Of a stretch of 64,000 nucleotides of DNA, positions 15,001 through 33,000 are shown one piece after another; position 1 is the stretch's first letter; every line of letters begins with the position of its first letter. The position numbers are program-made. This stretch comes from Stylophora pistillata (taxonomy: Eukaryota): positions 178,011-242,010 of the forward strand of contig NW_019218016.1 in NCBI RefSeq assembly GCF_002571385.2, read 5' to 3'.

Positions 15001-18000
15001 TACAAGGATCAAAACCTCGTTTTTTCACACATTTCTTACAATATTACATGGGAGGATTTGGTTTTGGAGCAAATCATGTCATCTGTTTGATAGTTTTTGT
15101 ACTTTTCATCACCTATCTACCACAGGTAACCCAGGCTCACTGCTTGTGTCACAAAACTTCGTGTACATATTAAAGACAACAAATCGCACAGGTACGTTTC
15201 ATTGATTTTTATTTCCATTATCAAACAAATTTCCAGACCTAAACTTGGCCCCATATGCTCTCTCTATTTAACCATGTGCATGTGACACAAACAGTGAGCC
15301 TGGATTACCTGTGTATCTACTTGAAAATGTAACGACATTGTAAGGAGAAATTCATTTTTGGTCACTCTGGGACCGCAAGGGCTAACTAATAATGGCTTTC
15401 TTCCCTTACCCGACCTCTTTCAGAGCTAAATCTCTAATTTATCCTAAACTAAAGCCGAGCTATTATAAAAGTATGATTTACAATCAAATCCCCAACTATC
15501 AAATTACCCTGAAGCCTCGAATAAGAACTCCCCTTGAATAGGCGCCCCTTCAAATATGGGCCCCCCCTTCTGGTCCTCTAATCACATGCACGGTTGTCTA
15601 ATGTACTTTTAAGAGGCTGGGTCACCTAACACATTAAAATTTCAACTGACCATTAGCCATGGAATATGCTCAAGGACCATCAAAACAGCTCAGACCAAAA
15701 AAACTCTCATAATTAATTTACCTAATCTGTGCTATTTTATTACTTAATGCTATTATTAATGTCAAAAAATGGTTAGATATTCTAGTCTTCTCGGATAGGG
15801 ACAAATAAATGGAGGTCCTTTCTCCTGCAGGGTTGGGGTAGGAGACGTTAATTTCCCACACACGAGATTACTGTGTGGTGGATGTCCTCCCCTGGGGTGG
15901 GATGGGTGGGAGGGTGGACTAGCACAAATGGTTCCTATGTTCCTTTCTAGTCCTTCCCCACTGCAAATAATGCAGTGAAAATGGACTAAATTCAATTAAA
16001 ATTAAATTAAATTATTACTTTCCAGATTAGTTAGGAGAATTTTGTAATATCCAGATGGTGCTCCTAAACAAACAAGAATTGTCTATTTCCCCATCTTGTT
16101 GACAAGACAATGTATTAATCACATAAGGTGAGGTGGCAATAAAAATTTGAAACATAATTTATTGTAAGCAAACAGAGGTAAGAATAGGAGAATTTGGAAG
16201 CTGAAAAGCAAGTTCACTTGGAAAAACAAAACACAATATTTCTTCTGATTAATATCATTCATATTGTATAAAAGTTAACGGAAAGTCTGCTCTTAAGCAC
16301 AGTAGTACACCCAAATCTGTGCAGCATCCCCTTGAATGCAACACTGGTTCATCAACCCTTCCAGTATTTCATCACCTTTCCCTGACAGTTCACCAGAACT
16401 AATTTACATCTCTAAGTAAAAAGAGGTACTGTAAAGTATCAAGCACAAGAACATGCCACAGATCTTGCCAGGGATTAAACCTGAATTTCTGGCTCAAAGT
16501 CCAGCTAAACCATTTGTCCAACATATCCCCCACTATCAGAAATGACCTTTCTTCCTTACTTGACTAGTATTTTGATAAAGTAGACTGTTTGCTATCTTAA
16601 TTCTAAGTTTAGTGCTCACAATTAAAAACAAACAAAGGAACAACAAAACAAAATTAAGACTAAAAAGCTGAATGCAATAACTGAGCCTTTTCCTCTTGTC
16701 TACATTGCCACCCACCTTCATGATTATTTTGATTATCTAAATTATGACTAAATGTAATAAATTGGAAATTTTCTTTCTACGTACATGATTTTACAATGCT
16801 AATATTCAGGGTTGTCCCCCCAAGCACCTGCTGCCAGCACAATTGGCTAGCAATCACTAGGCAGAGCACAACAGGTACTTCTGACATTGCGCACCTACAG
16901 TTGTTTGATACTTAACACTATCTTTGAACTGCATCACTTGAAATTTCAGCCACCGGCATAATTTCGTAGCTACAACCCTGAGCATGTCACTGTCCTAAGC
17001 ACGTCCCTGTGTTCCTTCCTCTGTAAGATGTATGTTATCATTGGTTCTGGTTTTCCCTTCATAGTAACAGGTCCTCGCTTTTTGAACACAAAGTGATCAT
17101 GTGGCTGGCACAGCAGTGACCTGAAGTCAAACAAAGTCACAAATTGCAATCAATGAATAACCTCTTCACTCCCAAGGTATAAAGACCAATTTTCACTGCT
17201 GTCTGCCATCAACATGTAACTTACCATCCAAATTTCAGTTCATTATGAATTCAATAATCATGGCTGTTGACAAAGGAAGGGGTCAGGAAAGGCCAAATCC
17301 CTGTGGATGGAATCCCTGGGAGGGGTATCCCTGAGGAGTGAATTCAATAATTGCAGCTGGTGACTGAGAAGGGGGAGAGAAAGGCCAAATCCCTGTGAAA
17401 GGAATCCCTTGGAGGGGGATCCCTGAGGGGTGGATTCAATAATTACAGCTAGTGACTGAGGAGGGGGAGAGAAAGGCCAAATCCCTGTGGATGGAATCCC
17501 TGGGAGTGGATTCAGTAATTAGGGACCGAGGAGGGAGGAGGGAAAGGCCAAAATCCCCAAGGGTGGTATCCCTTGGGGTGGTATCCCATGGGGTGGTTTC
17601 TCTGAAGGTGACTAAGGAAGGAGAAGTGAAAGGCCAAATTCCCTGGGGGTTGTATCCCTGAGGAAGATGGCCAAAACTTGGGGGAGGATGTAAGGCCTCT
17701 GGAGACAACAAATGAGTTGGTTGGCCCATAAGGGTCATGGAAAAACAAAATCATCTCGACCCATTTCACCTAATCAGTGACACACCTGTAGGCATATTCT
17801 GTCACATTTATCTTTCCTCGCAGTCCAGTAGTTTCTGTACGACTTGTCAGGTTGACAGTGTTTCCAAATAGGCAGTAACGGGGTTTCTTCTGTCCAACAA
17901 CGCCAGCAACAACCTCTCCAGAATGAATGCCAACTGTGATCTAACACAGGAAAAGCACATCTCTCAGAGTTCACACTATAGTTTTTGTTTTAAAAAAATA

Positions 18001-30000: not shown

Positions 30001-33000
30001 GAAGATAGATGATAAATAAAACCCGTTCATTCAGGAAGTCTCAAAAGCGTTTCAAAGAAGTGAGACTGTCAGAGAATTCAAATATCAGGGGAGGTGATAT
30101 TTACATAAAAAGTTTGAACACAAAATAGAAATGATGAGAGATTGAAAATTGTGTCGATGAAAATGAATTCCGCGGTAAACCTTTCAATATGAATTATTGA
30201 TACTAAAGCGAAAAGAAATAAAAATTAAGATTTTTATCGATAAAATTCAGATAATGAAGGAACAAAAGTGACAGATTTGTGCTGTTGAAGCGTCCATAGA
30301 AATGCGCGAACAATGAAAACAGTCGGTTGTTTGAAGAAGTTATAGAATTTGAAAGAAATATTATCTTCGTGTCCTCGTGACAGTTATATGCGAGGCGTGA
30401 GATTCATCGAGATCAGAGTTGTCATCGCTAATAAAATATAAGCCCGCTAAAGGAGATGAACCGAGTTCGAAGGGTTATTTTAAACAGCAAAGCCACCAAC
30501 GGTGAAAAAAGACGCAGGCTTAGTGTTCCAGCGTTTTGGTAAACACTTGTCAATCACAAACAACCTTCTCTCCCACAAACACAAAAGCAGATTTAAAAGG
30601 AAAAAAATAAGGTTATTATTCTTACCTTGTAAACATCGTTCATCCCACTCAACATGTCAAAGTAGGTGTAAAGCTTGTTCAGCATCCGAACGATGTCCAT
30701 GGGAACAATTTTGTCGTCGGAACATAGCGCTGTAAACCCGACGATGTCGCTGAAAAGTATAGTAACCAGCTTGTAGTTTTCCGCGGGCACCGGTTGATTT
30801 AACCGCAGTTTAGCCGCGACTTCTTGGGGCAGAATAGAATGCAGCAATTCGTCTGTGCGTTTTTTGTTTTCCGTGAGCTTTACCTCCAGTTTCTTCAGGT
30901 CGTTGCTAGTTTCCTCTAACTTTTCCACCAATTCTCGCTCGGCTCTTCTTGCCTGTGACATGAAAATGAGGTCACGCGTTGCATCGTGAACTGGTATATC
31001 ATTGAAAAAAATACCCAGGTTCTTAAAATTGTCTAAGTCGTTTGCCCGAGGGGAGCACAAAAATAGAATGCTGTCGTTCGTTGGAACATAAATCATCTGA
31101 CCCTTGAGGCGTAGTAATGGATTTGTAAGGATCATTCTCTGATCTTCTCGACCGTCTGACTCGTTGGACATTGTATCCGCCGCAAATCGCAGCGCGGACT
31201 GTTTTACTGTCACAATAAAAACTGTATTTATGTGCGCAAGAACAGAATCAAACGAAAATTCCATACGCGGTCTTGACAGTTCGAAAATTTCCGTGAACGA
31301 GAAGGCACTGCCGGTTGTAAACCGTTTGCTCAGAAGGCGCATCATGGCAACCCCAGTTTGCGTGATGTTAAGTTTATGATCGAACATCACGTGAAATGGG
31401 AAAGCTTTGCAGAATGACAACAAACTGAGCCCTCCTCGCCGCTTCTTGTCCATGTTTTCGCCATCCGAGGACAGCTCCGCACTGTGATTATCTACCATGG
31501 TTTCTAAATCAAACGCCTGTAGCCCAAGTTTTGATTGCGTTGCATTTTTGCAGCCTGTCTCTCTGATTGCAAATATGACATGTCCGCGATCGTCGGATCG
31601 CGCTTGCTGCACACACACTTCCACCTCGGTGTCAAGCATTTTATTCGCTACTGCTTTAACGACTCCGATAACGATGTGTTCCAAACCTTGTCTCCGTGAG
31701 TAATAGTGTAGGAGCAGTGTTCCATCAGGAGTCTCGGTACAGCGAAAAGACGGTGCTTCCATACCTGGGTAAATCGTAGCGAGATGATCATGGAGCGCGT
31801 CCAAGTTACATAAAAAATCTCTCAGATTCCTCCCCAGCACTTTCAGAATCCGATCATAGCCGGTCTGCAGACAGTAATCCAGAAAATGTGAGCCAAAAGC
31901 TTCCAAAACAGCGTTCAGGGGTAAAGCTGAAACAAGTCAACGAAGCAAATTTTAACTTTTTTTATTTTAAAATATCTCGCGCGATAGAATTACATTTGCG
32001 ATAACCTTAGTTAAGACTGGAAAGAATGTTCTTAAATAGGATTTACGATATATATCAGCCCATAAGACCTCTGTCTATAGAAAAACATTTTTGTAATAAA
32101 TAAAATACAAGCTGAACAGTTCACTATATTGCATACCCAGAGTCTCGCAAGCCGCAGCGACCAAACTCAGAGTTTCTTCATCATCATAAATTTTGTGAAT
32201 TAGGTATGATCCGCCGTCTAATTCCACCCCAGCCTTCTCGCTGAAAGAAGAAACAGAAAGAACATAATTGCACTGCAGAGCGGCCTCTTTCACTTGCAAC
32301 CCATTTAGGCGTTTCAAAAACTATTAATGTCTTCTTACACGATAGATCGCCATACGTCTTCGCCAAACTTAGAAACCACCAAGTCCGCCAGAGCGCAATG
32401 AATGAATCCATACTGTGAGCGAAACAAAGATGCGTTTAGTAACACGCAACACAGATAACTTAAGCGATCTTTGAAAGCGGGAGCAAGGAAATCTTACCAT
32501 ATTTTTGTTGCGCTTCACAAGTTCAGCCCCTCTGTGTCAAACTTTCGGCGCTCTCTTAATGATTTCCTTGATTGTTTTAGGTGTTAGTCACGTGTCATTG
32601 TATCTCCCACGGCATCTAGGCTGTAATTACTGATAGCTCAGGCCATCCAATCACCTTGAAGTGCCTTTGTCAATAAGGCACCTTAGCCTCGTATCTGCAA
32701 AGCAACCGGCTTGTCAGAATTCACTGCGACTAATTGCGCGTCTAAAGCCTAAAACATCTGATATTGCATTTACGTTCGCAAAAGTATCAACAAGGCTTAG
32801 TAAAAACTTCATACAATAGATAAGTTTTAATTCGCATGACACATAACAAAGTTTAGGACGGAAATTCTGATTTATTCATCCAATTTTCCACGCATTCTCC
32901 GCATTCAGTGTCCGAAGTAAACAAACAATTCGCTCTGCAATACGTAAGGTGTCGAAGTCTTATCGCGTAGAATATGTTTCCTGTGTGCTTTCATTTCAGC

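What the first reader, a model, noticed from the sequence alone, without database searches (positions are those of the whole stretch)
16970..32500. Tandem, catalytically complementary alpha-beta sGC pair in the vertebrate GUCY1A1-GUCY1B1 order
Seen: both genes lie on the minus strand, alpha upstream of beta, ~3 kb apart. They share five intron positions and phases: ~codon 26 phase 2, ~codon 61 phase 1, before VET, before IxxGIH, and the phase-2 Arg. Alpha has the first metal-binding Asp (FSD) but lacks the N/R residues; beta has FSG but retains E, C, N, R and K. Each is therefore predicted inactive alone and active as a heterodimer. Established: human GUCY1A1 and GUCY1B1 are adjacent in the same order. 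Inference: the original tandem duplication has stayed linked since the cnidarian-bilaterian ancestor.
Basis: partly seen in the sequence, partly recalled or inferred. Interest (0 to 1): 0.7.

Follow-up and report, generated by a model that had tools for sequence, protein, structure and literature searches.

The report
Tandem complementary soluble guanylate cyclase genes
Two neighbouring genes encode the two complementary halves of a nitric-oxide-type guanylate cyclase; the downstream one is a clear beta-1 type, while the upstream "alpha" partner unusually still has a complete beta-style heme pocket.

Summary
Two intact soluble guanylate cyclase (sGC) genes lie head-to-tail on the minus strand. 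Gene A spans 32500-25368 (782 aa) and gene B spans 22355-16970 (625 aa), with 3,012 nt between them. All 12 introns are GT-AG. Five intron positions and phases are shared. Their catalytic residues are complementary. A has both metal-binding Asp but Thr/Lys where Asn/Arg should be. B has Gly at the first Asp but keeps Glu, Cys, Asn, Arg and Lys.

Every B exon that gave a PDB hit matches beta-1 best. A is mixed. Its core catalytic exon is closer to alpha-1 (62.8 vs 51.4 bits). Its H-NOX/PAS/coiled-coil exon is much closer to beta-1 (348 vs 191 bits). A also keeps the heme His, the YxSxR motif and both NO-linked Cys, and it has no N-terminal extension.

A and B are not each other's closest relatives, so a recent duplication is unlikely. 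Orthology of A to bilaterian alpha, the host taxon, and therefore "linked since the cnidarian-bilaterian ancestor" could not be tested. No animal sequence collection was open, and all searches were exon by exon with nothing joined.

The parts
25368..32500 (-). Gene A: the alpha-type sGC subunit (782 aa), with 7 coding exons and domain order HNOB-HNOBA-Guanylate_cyc
   Evidence: model; all introns GT-AG. (Pfam per exon: HNOB 117.5 bits, HNOBA 204.2 bits, Guanylate_cyc 44.8/37.5/72.4 bits).
32498..32500 (-). A exon 1: the ATG alone, followed by a GTAAGA donor and an 85-nt intron
   Evidence: An in-frame TGA lies 13 codons upstream in the same exon (read).
32339..32412 (-). A exon 2 (start of H-NOX, YGFIH...), ending in phase 2 at codon 26
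   Evidence: HNOB profile 1-24, 20.7 bits, below the 25.5-bit cut-off because the exon is short.
32137..32240 (-). A exon 3 (H-NOX), ending in phase 1 at codon 61
   Evidence: HNOB profile 27-56, 20.5 bits, below the cut-off.
30626..31926 (-). A exon 4 (1301 nt): rest of H-NOX, PAS/HNOBA, coiled coil and start of the cyclase. It holds the heme His (31792-31790), Y/S/R (31705-31691), the Cys78-equivalent (31873-31871), the Cys214-equivalent (31411-31409) and metal Asp 1 (30748-30746).
27503..27649 (-). A exon 5 (V-E-T-I-G-D-A-Y...), holding metal Asp 2 at 27634-27632
26563..26717 (-). A exon 6 (155 nt; I-R-I-G-I-H ... V-T-L-A-N-K). Thr and Lys stand in place of Asn and Arg. The exon ends in the phase-2 Arg.
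25368..25932 (-). A exon 7: end of the cyclase domain plus a tail of about 150 aa with no detectable family. It ends ...I-E-T-T-L-stop.
   Evidence: 0 Pfam families; 0 PDB matches at E<=10; no usable Atlas hit
22356..25367 (.). 3,012-nt spacer between A's stop and B's ATG. It should hold A's 3' UTR and B's promoter and 5' UTR. The first minus-strand AATAAA after A's stop is at 24965-24960.
   Evidence: No RNA family or tRNA found.
16970..22355 (-). Gene B: the beta-1-type sGC subunit (625 aa), with 7 coding exons
   Evidence: Pfam HNOB 108.2 bits, HNOBA 110.5 and 78.8 bits, Guanylate_cyc 43.9/42.3/75.6 bits. Exons 1, 2 and 7 gave 0 families.
22279..22355 (-). B exon 1 (MYGFVN...), ending in phase 2 at codon 26
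   Evidence: BLASTP against A exon 2: 41.7% identity over 24 aa.
22001..22107 (-). B exon 2, ending in phase 1 at codon 62
   Evidence: BLASTP against A exon 3: 37.1% identity over 35 aa.
19865..20722 (-). B exon 3: H-NOX and PAS. It holds the heme His (20588-20586), Y/S/R (20498-20484), the Cys78-equivalent (20669-20667) and the Cys214-equivalent (20240-20238). It ends at B's private phase-1 intron.
18890..19278 (-). B exon 4: coiled coil and start of the cyclase. Gly (19012-19010) replaces metal Asp 1.
18079..18219 (-). B exon 5 (V-E-T-V-G-D-K-Y...)
17786..17940 (-). B exon 6 (155 nt), holding Cys, Asn (17853-17851) and Arg (17841-17839). It ends in the phase-2 Arg.
16970..17120 (-). B exon 7, holding the M-K-G-K Lys (17059-17057) and the TAG stop

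Best explanation
A and B encode the two subunits of one heterodimeric, heme-regulated (NO-type) soluble guanylate cyclase. The single composite active site is built from both chains. A supplies the two metal-binding Asp. B supplies the base-recognising Glu and Cys and the transition-state and triphosphate residues Asn, Arg and Lys. By the standard class III cyclase model, an A-A or B-B dimer should therefore be inactive or nearly so.

B is an orthologue of bilaterian beta-1. A is the alpha-type partner by its catalytic domain. Unlike bilaterian alpha-1, A still has a beta-1-grade H-NOX with the proximal His, YxSxR, Cys78 and Cys214, so it may bind heme itself.

The head-to-tail arrangement with a 3-kb spacer plausibly keeps the two subunits co-regulated. 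It is probably the same arrangement as the vertebrate GUCY1A1-GUCY1B1 tandem.

Shown here: gene structures, domain architecture, residue pattern and per-exon similarity. Inferred: heterodimerisation, NO activation, heme binding by A, co-expression, orthology of A to alpha, and the age of the linkage.

My estimates: functional complementary pair about 0.8; B is beta-1 type about 0.9; A lies in the alpha clade about 0.55-0.6; the linkage is homologous to the vertebrate tandem about 0.45.
For: - **Models:** both are intact and canonically spliced.
- **Architecture:** HNOB-HNOBA-Guanylate_cyc in both genes.
- **Residues:** the pattern is complementary.
- **B is beta-1-like in every exon that gave a PDB hit.** Scores for beta-1 vs alpha-1 are 254.9 vs 73.5, 147.5-150 vs 88.2, and 85.2 vs 49.1 bits. 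For exon 5, beta-1 scores 46.1 bits and alpha-1 is not listed at E<=1e-4. For exon 7, beta-1 scores 24.8 bits and alpha-1 is not listed at E<=10.
- **A's catalytic exons lean to alpha-1.**
  - Exon 6 scores 62.8/60.6 bits (human) and 59.6 bits (Manduca) against alpha-1, and 51.4/49.6 and 53.5 bits against beta-1. By hand count, A exon 6 matches human alpha-1 at 35 of 49 residues and beta-1 at 27 of 49.
  - The catalytic start scores 42.6 vs 35.3 bits.
  - Exon 5 is a tie, 39.5 vs 38.9 bits.
  - The hexapeptide V-T-L-A-N-K is identical in A and human alpha-1 (alignment).
- **A and B are only 41.3% identical** over 579 columns. A's exon 4 scores higher against human and Manduca beta-1 (348 and 340 bits) than against B (299.9 bits).
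- **Quartet score sums favour (A,alpha)(B,beta) over (A,beta)(B,alpha):** 593 vs 510 (human) and 553 vs 480 (Manduca) for the N-terminal exons, and 143.7 vs 98.1 and 132.7 vs 89.2 for exon 6.
- **No DNA repeat** of 40 nt or more is shared by the two genes.
- **Vertebrate tandem:** passage in PMC4032937; both genes placed at 4q32.1 in PMC2430169; a medaka tandem paper seen only as a reference title.
Against: - **A's regulatory half is beta-1-like.** It is much more like beta-1 than alpha-1 (348 vs 190.8 bits; 212.1/195 vs 168.3/149 bits on the same 266 aa). The human alpha-1 match does not cover A's H-NOX at all; it starts at query residue 170.
- **A's H-NOX outscores B's.** Its H-NOX stretch scores higher against the human beta-1 H-NOX (139.2 bits) than B's does (119.2 bits).
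- **A has no N-terminal extension.**
- **A's alpha lean is small** in the catalytic domain, about 19 bits summed over three exons. It rests partly on states that could be ancestral (I-G-D-A-Y, M-E-S). The A-N-K motif also occurs in the C1 half of adenylate cyclase 8 (alignment), so convergence is possible.
- **The third quartet pairing could not be scored.** No alpha-1 vs beta-1 score was available.
- **The PDB set has gaps.** It contains no beta-2, Gyc-88E/89D or GCY-3x chains.
- **Some exons gave no hits.** A's tail (exon 7) has no PDB or Pfam match. B exons 1, 2 and 7 have no Pfam hit.
- **No direct evidence** for expression, binding or enzyme activity.
- **Cnidarians are reported to have about seven sGCs** (passage in PMC10073611), so other partners are possible.
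Confidence: 0.6

Rival explanations
1. Lineage-specific tandem duplication of a beta-1-type gene. One copy (A) then lost Asn and Arg but kept both Asp, converging on an alpha-like role. This would parallel the way beta-like GCY-35/GCY-36 are thought to work as an alpha/beta-like pair in C. elegans.
For: - A's H-NOX, PAS and coiled coil are beta-1-grade.
- A keeps the heme ligands and both Cys.
- A has no N-terminal extension.
- Five introns are shared with B.
- The two genes are adjacent.
- The A-N-K motif also occurs in adenylate cyclase C1, so it can arise more than once.
- A passage in PMC1435932 reports genetic evidence that the beta-like GCY-35/36 pair functions as an alpha/beta-like heterodimer.
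Against: - A scores lower against B (299.9 bits) than against human or Manduca beta-1 (348 and 340 bits). B scores 402 and 368 bits against them. A sister relation of A and B would need both copies to have changed more than the whole path to a human or insect beta-1.
- A exon 6 matches human alpha-1 at 35 of 49 residues, against 27 of 49 for beta-1 and 57% for B.
- Quartet sums favour the pairing (A,alpha)(B,beta).
Confidence: 0.15
2. A belongs to another old sGC class, either beta-2-like/atypical or a class without a bilaterian counterpart. Its adjacency to the beta-1 gene would then not be homologous to the vertebrate alpha-beta tandem.
For: - A has a heme-competent H-NOX and a long C-terminal tail.
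- The PDB offers no beta-2 or atypical chain for comparison.
- Cnidarians and placozoans are reported to have seven sGCs (PMC10073611 passage; PMC7400543 passage).
Against: - A keeps the Cys78 and Cys214 equivalents. PMC1435932 says atypical and nematode sGCs lack these.
- Position 145 is Ile, not a distal Tyr (alignment).
- A lacks the Asn and Arg that a homodimer-active subunit needs.
- The V-T-L-A-N-K motif and the exon 6 score lean to alpha-1.
Confidence: 0.2
3. A and B are neighbours but not partners. Each pairs with another sGC subunit encoded elsewhere, or A is a regulatory or dominant-negative subunit.
For: - Several sGC paralogues are expected in such genomes.
- No expression or binding evidence was obtained here.
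- A passage in PMC2430169 notes that even the human tandem genes may not be fully co-regulated.
Against: - The catalytic residue sets are exactly reciprocal.
- The genes lie head-to-tail on the same strand at 3 kb.
- In the known vertebrate tandem, the two genes do encode partners.
Confidence: 0.15

Closest known systems
Vertebrate GUCY1A1 (GUCY1A3)-GUCY1B1 (GUCY1B3) tandem encoding the alpha-1/beta-1 NO receptor
   Same: - Two sGC subunit genes lie in tandem (PMC4032937 passage).
- The metal-binding subunit gene lies upstream of the beta gene on the same strand. That order in human and medaka is recalled, not seen in a call.
- The catalytic residues are complementary.
- B matches beta-1 in every exon that gave a hit.
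   Different: - A's H-NOX keeps the heme His, YxSxR, Cys78 and Cys214, and aligns to beta-1 rather than to human alpha-1.
- A has no N-terminal extension.
- The spacer is only 3 kb and the genes are compact (5.4 and 7.1 kb).
- Orthology of A was not demonstrated.
Beta-like heterodimer pairs in which both subunits keep a heme H-NOX: C. elegans GCY-35/GCY-36 and Drosophila Gyc-88E with Gyc-89Da/Db
   Same: Both partners keep a heme-binding H-NOX, and the work is divided in an alpha/beta-like way (PMC1435932 passages).
   Different: According to that paper, those subunits lack the two Cys linked to NO activation and act as O2 sensors. A and B keep both Cys and have Ile or Met, not Tyr, at position 145. 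Gyc-88E is active alone, whereas A and B each lack essential residues.
Mammalian alpha-2 subunit (GUCY1A2), targeted to synapses through its C-terminus and PDZ3 of PSD-95
   Same: A ends in ...E-T-T-L, which fits the class I PDZ-ligand consensus. The C-terminal region of alpha-2 binds PSD-95 PDZ3 (PMC9914232 passage).
   Different: This is only a 3-4 residue motif and the binding is untested. The exact alpha-2 end motif is recalled, not seen in a call. The rest of A's 150-aa tail matches nothing.
C1/C2 pseudo-heterodimer of membrane adenylate cyclases
   Same: One half carries the metal Asp and an A-N-K motif. The other half carries Asn and Arg. A exon 6 aligns to both halves of adenylate cyclase 8.
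   Different: There the two halves sit on one polypeptide and make cAMP. Here they sit on two genes, with Glu and Cys specifying GTP.

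Membership tests
sGC beta-1 (GUCY1B1 type), for gene B | HNOB-HNOBA-coiled coil-cyclase architecture | tested here: met
   Pfam per exon. Exons 1, 2 and 7 are too short or divergent and gave 0 families.
sGC beta-1 (GUCY1B1 type), for gene B | Heme pocket: proximal His105, Tyr135/Ser137/Arg139, plus Cys78 and Cys214 | tested here: met
   Ungapped alignment to human beta-1 residues 64-165 and the block containing Cys214. 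Codons are given.
sGC beta-1 (GUCY1B1 type), for gene B | Catalytic set: Gly at metal Asp 1, with Glu473, Cys541, Asn548, Arg552 and the K-G-K Lys present | tested here: met
sGC beta-1 (GUCY1B1 type), for gene B | Closer to beta-1 than to any other solved cyclase in every exon | tested here: met
   All 5 exons searched (exons 3-7) have beta-1 chains on top.
sGC alpha (GUCY1A type), for gene A | Both metal-binding Asp present. Asn548/Arg552 equivalents replaced (Thr/Lys within T-L-A-N-K). No K-G-K motif. | tested here: met
   The V-T-L-A-N-K motif is identical to human alpha-1 in the alignment.
sGC alpha (GUCY1A type), for gene A | Catalytic domain closer to alpha than to beta | tested here: met
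   Scores for alpha vs beta: exon 6, 62.8 vs 51.4 bits; catalytic start, 42.6 vs 35.3 bits; exon 5, 39.5 vs 38.9 bits, a tie. The margin is small.
sGC alpha (GUCY1A type), for gene A | Heme-free pseudo-H-NOX (no proximal His, no YxSxR) and an N-terminal extension, as in bilaterian alpha-1 | tested here: not met
   A keeps His, Y-x-S-x-R, Cys78 and Cys214 (alignment). It starts M-Y-G-F like beta-1. The human alpha-1 match begins only at query residue 170.
sGC alpha (GUCY1A type), for gene A | Placement inside the alpha clade in a tree that includes all sGC classes | not testable with these tools
   No animal protein or genome collection was open, and exons were not to be joined. Only quartet score sums were available, and these favour alpha.
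Atypical / O2-sensing sGCs (Gyc-88E/89D, GCY-31..37, MsGC-beta3), for gene A | Heme His kept, Cys78/Cys214 lost, and a distal-pocket Tyr | tested here: not met
   A has both Cys and has Ile at position 145 (alignment). The criteria come from passages in PMC1435932 and in bioRxiv 10.1101/2022.02.14.480389.
Conserved GUCY1A-GUCY1B1 microsynteny | Same-strand adjacency, with the alpha-type gene upstream of the beta-1 gene | tested here: met
   for the window. The vertebrate tandem is supported. The order of the two vertebrate genes is recalled.
Conserved GUCY1A-GUCY1B1 microsynteny | The same pair is adjacent in other non-bilaterian and invertebrate genomes, with both genes orthologous | not testable with these tools
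Literature searches found nothing (0 papers each).

The most novel reading that the evidence does not exclude
The pair preserves the ancestral state of the animal NO receptor: the original tandem duplicates, still linked. Here the catalytic domains have already split the work in the alpha/beta way, but the alpha-type chain has not yet lost its heme. The enzyme would then be a two-heme sGC heterodimer. Bilaterian alpha subunits would have lost heme binding only later. The alpha-type chain may also carry a PDZ-ligand end like mammalian alpha-2.
Probability: 0.3. Interest if true: 0.65.

Novelty: new member of a known kind. Interest (0 to 1): 0.4.

Why it matters
sGC is the main NO receptor of animals and a drug target. 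How its obligate alpha/beta asymmetry arose is not settled. That asymmetry has two parts: one heme on beta only, and one active site built from two half-sets of residues.

This pair has the catalytic asymmetry already complete while both H-NOX domains still look heme-competent. That gives a direct test of the order of events. One would express A, B and A+B, then measure heme content and NO activation.

If the tandem is homologous to the vertebrate one, it would be a very old two-gene linkage. The likely reason for its survival is the need to make both subunits together. If not, it is an ordinary though well-preserved sGC gene pair.

Tried and rejected
**Searches that gave nothing useful**
- Atlas look-alikes for A exon 4 returned only generic sGC clusters with no alpha/beta naming. 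For A's tail there was no usable hit.
- A PDB search of A's tail found 0 matches at E<=10. The resemblance of A's last exon to the alpha-1 C-terminus that I recalled is therefore unsupported.
- Rfam found 0 families and ARAGORN found 0 tRNAs in the window.
- No repeat of 40 nt or more is shared by A and B. Only intronic satellites turned up.
- AATAAA scanning gives only tentative poly(A) sites.

**Literature**
- Searches for cnidarian sGC synteny or microsynteny returned 0 papers.
- The search for H-NOX in cnidarians returned 2 papers, neither about alpha-subunit heme.
- The mouse gene-structure paper of Sharina et al. 2000 is not held. I could therefore not compare intron positions with mammals.
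- Supplementary sequence lists and trees of PMC7400543 and PMC10073611 might classify cnidarian sGCs, but supplements were closed.

**Steps not run**
- Complex prediction: this is a textbook pair that would pass by likeness to solved sGC structures, and a pass cannot tell A-B from other sGC pairings.
- Structure prediction and fold search: the domains are split over exons that were not to be joined.
- The genome-contig scan: that collection holds prokaryotes only.

- The search for homologous proteins, the search of protein representatives, and the metagenome and viral collections. No relatives from other animals were fetched and no tree was built.

**Considered and rejected**
- Pseudogenes: both reading frames are intact.
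- Recent duplicates or gene conversion: identity is only 41% and no DNA repeat is shared.
- A human contig: the proteins are only about 40-75% identical to the human sGC chains in the alignments.

Full report
**Scope and limits**

There is therefore no full-length fold, complex or tree.

I do not take the window for human. Its sGC exons are only about 40-75% identical to the human chains in the alignments printed. The three N runs (10753, 38536-38556, 44158) lie outside the two genes and were left as they are.

No sequences from other animals could be fetched.

Yes. Reading the minus strand and checking junctions by script gives two complete genes.

- **Gene A:** 32500-32498, 32412-32339, 32240-32137, 31926-30626, 27649-27503, 26717-26563, 25932-25368. 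This is 2349 nt, or 782 aa.
- **Gene B:** 22355-22279, 22107-22001, 20722-19865, 19278-18890, 18219-18079, 17940-17786, 17120-16970. This is 1878 nt, or 625 aa.

All 12 of 12 introns are GT-AG and the phases close. A's stop and B's ATG are 3,012 nt apart.

Pfam, run exon by exon, finds HNOB, HNOBA and Guanylate_cyc in both genes.
- A exons 2 and 3 match HNOB below the cut-off (20.7 and 20.5 bits against 25.5).
- A exon 7 and B exons 1, 2 and 7 give no family.

The five shared introns are confirmed: codon 26 phase 2; codon 61/62 phase 1; phase 0 before V-E-T; phase 0 before I-x-x-G-I-H; and a phase-2 Arg closing a 155-nt exon in both genes. BLASTP between the exon translations runs to the shared exon ends. 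Five or more coincidences out of 6 vs 6 by chance would have P of about 2e-13.

Each gene also has a private intron. A's lies right after the ATG, so its first coding exon is the ATG alone. B's is a phase-1 intron in the Gly before LYLSDIP.

**2. Catalytic complementarity**

| Position | Gene A | Gene B |
|---|---|---|
| Metal Asp 1 | Asp (L-F-S-D) | Gly (M-F-S-G) |
| Metal Asp 2 | Asp (E-T-I-G-D) | Asp |
| Glu (base recognition) | present | present |
| Cys (base recognition) | present | present |
| Asn548 equivalent | Thr | Asn |
| Arg552 equivalent | Lys | Arg |
| M-K-G-K Lys | motif absent | present |

By the established class III cyclase mechanism, neither homodimer has a full site and the heterodimer has exactly one. 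That is inference from family knowledge, not a measurement.

**3. What are the two genes?**

B is beta-1-like throughout.

| B exon | beta-1 (bits) | alpha-1 (bits) |
|---|---|---|
| 3 | 254.9 | 73.5 |
| 4 | 147.5-150 | 88.2 |
| 5 | 46.1 | not listed at E<=1e-4 |
| 6 | 85.2 | 49.1 |
| 7 | 24.8 | not listed at E<=10 |

A is mixed.

| A region | alpha-1 (bits) | beta-1 (bits) |
|---|---|---|
| Exon 6 (core catalytic) | 62.8/60.6 human, 59.6 Manduca | 51.4/49.6 human, 53.5 Manduca |
| Catalytic start within exon 4 | 42.6 | 35.3 |
| Exon 5 | 39.5 | 38.9 (a tie) |
| Exon 4 whole (433 aa: H-NOX, PAS, coiled coil) | 190.8 human, 185.3 Manduca | 348 human, 340 Manduca |
| Exon 4 with H-NOX removed (266 aa) | 168.3 human, 149 Manduca | 212.1 human, 195 Manduca |

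- By hand count, A exon 6 matches human alpha-1 at 35 of 49 residues and beta-1 at 27 of 49. The hexapeptide V-T-L-A-N-K is identical in A and alpha-1.
- The human alpha-1 match to exon 4 starts only at query residue 170, so it does not cover A's H-NOX.

In the printed alignments, A keeps the proximal His, Y-x-S-x-R, the Cys78 and Cys214 equivalents and Ile at position 145. It starts M-Y-G-F with no N-terminal extension. Its H-NOX stretch even scores higher against the human beta-1 H-NOX (139.2 bits) than B's does (119.2 bits).

**4. Are A and B recent duplicates?**

A's exon 4 scores 299.9 bits against B's two corresponding exons, but 348 and 340 bits against human and insect beta-1. B scores 402 and 368 bits against them. 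For A and B to be sisters, each would have had to change more than the whole path to a human or insect beta-1.

Quartet sums of the same scores favour (A,alpha)(B,beta) over (A,beta)(B,alpha):
- N-terminal exons: 593 vs 510 (human), 553 vs 480 (Manduca).
- Exon 6: 143.7 vs 98.1 (human), 132.7 vs 89.2 (Manduca).

The third pairing could not be scored because no alpha-1 vs beta-1 score was available. Bit scores are also not additive distances. This is a lean, not a proof.

Several of A's alpha-like states may be ancestral (I-G-D-A-Y, M-E-S). The A-N-K motif also occurs in the C1 half of adenylate cyclase 8, so convergence cannot be dismissed. The PDB has no beta-2 or atypical sGC. However, A keeps the two Cys that a passage of PMC1435932 says atypical and nematode sGCs lack. 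It also has no distal Tyr, the criterion given in a passage of bioRxiv 10.1101/2022.02.14.480389.

**5. Most likely mechanism**

A and B form an NO-type heterodimeric guanylate cyclase with one composite site. A supplies the metal ligands, and B supplies the base, ribose and triphosphate contacts. B's H-NOX is the canonical heme sensor. A's H-NOX is probably heme-competent too.

The 3-kb head-to-tail spacing suggests coordinated expression. The first minus-strand AATAAA after A's stop is at 24965-24960, which is tentative.

A ends in ...E-T-T-L, a class I PDZ-ligand pattern. The mammalian alpha-2 C-terminus binds PDZ3 of PSD-95 (PMC9914232 passage). This is a weak but suggestive alpha-family trait. 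The rest of A's 150-aa tail matches nothing.

**6. Comparison with the known, and novelty**

- The human alpha-1 and beta-1 genes are 'arranged in tandem' (PMC4032937 passage) at 4q32.1 (PMC2430169 table and passage).
- A medaka paper on the same tandem was seen only as a reference title.
- The alpha-then-beta order in vertebrates is recalled.
- I found nothing in print on such linkage outside vertebrates, or on a heme-competent alpha in cnidarians. Searches returned 0 papers. The search returned 2 papers, neither on this. The search returned 5 papers. Of these I read passages of PMC7400543 and PMC10073611, which report sGC trees but say nothing on linkage in the passages seen. Their supplements were closed.

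**Verdict.** This is a real, intact and well-described kind of system, an sGC subunit pair. It has one uncommon feature, a beta-grade heme domain on the alpha-type chain, and a plausible but untested claim of very old linkage. I file it as a new member of a known kind, interest 0.4. If the two-heme ancestral reading proved true, interest would be about 0.65, at a probability of about 0.3.

Noticed in passing
window 25368-25932 (-), last codons before the stop at 25370-25368: Gene A carries a tail of about 150 aa beyond the cyclase domain, with no Pfam, PDB or Atlas match. The tail ends ...I-E-T-T-L, a class I PDZ-ligand pattern. This recalls the PSD-95-binding C-terminus of mammalian alpha-2.
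   Followed up: partly
window 32498-32500 and the intron 32413-32497 (-): Gene A's first coding exon is the ATG alone, followed by an 85-nt intron. In gene B the same ATG-TAT junction is uninterrupted.
   Followed up: yes
window 31675-31873 (-) vs 20466-20669 (-): The alpha-type gene A has an H-NOX more similar to the human beta-1 H-NOX (139.2 bits) than the beta-type gene B has (119.2 bits). In the printed alignments A also keeps a Cys at the position of beta-1 Cys122 (F-R-C-T), where B has F-H-A-K.
   Followed up: partly
window 26565-26717 (-): The top PDB hit of A exon 6 is adenylate cyclase type 8, matched in both its C1 and C2 halves. The C1 half shares the A-N-K motif with A and with alpha-1. 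This may be convergence in the metal-binding halves of heterodimeric cyclases.
   Followed up: no
window 26159-26342 and 26025-26082: An (AGTC)n microsatellite of about 46 copies, plus a 12/24-nt repeat, lies inside gene A's last intron.
   Followed up: no
window 17246-17551: A 92-nt minisatellite of about 3 copies lies inside gene B's last intron.
   Followed up: no
window 35647-36102 (+): An ORF with the end of a Helitron helicase-like N-terminal domain (Pfam 41.5 bits) is probably a transposon remnant upstream of gene A. A 160-aa ORF at 40564-41043 (+) gave no Pfam family.
   Followed up: partly
window 42428-42892 (-), 47275-47658 (-), 48487-62331 (+): Neighbouring genes include a Sec7-domain exon (43.2 bits), an F-box exon (31.1 bits) and a long multi-exon coiled-coil gene on the plus strand. 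By recollection only, the N-terminal exon of the coiled-coil gene resembles a centrosomal coiled-coil protein.
   Followed up: partly
window 7416-7784 (both strands) and 57250-57519 (-): ORF translations at these two distant places share a long stretch (...M-M-T-S-A-x-V-V-E-T-S-V-T-T-T-D-N-S-P-S-Q-D-Y-T-H-P-D-D...). This suggests an interspersed repeat, with an inverted pair at 7.4-7.8 kb.
   Followed up: no
window 59875-60453: All frames on both strands are open across a tandem array of roughly 57-nt units, with repeated peptide blocks in the ORF translations.
   Followed up: no
window 5172-6358 (-): ORFs with an RGG-repeat stretch and a Q/Y/P-rich stretch are possibly exons of an RNA-binding-type protein downstream of gene B. 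They gave no Pfam family.
   Followed up: partly
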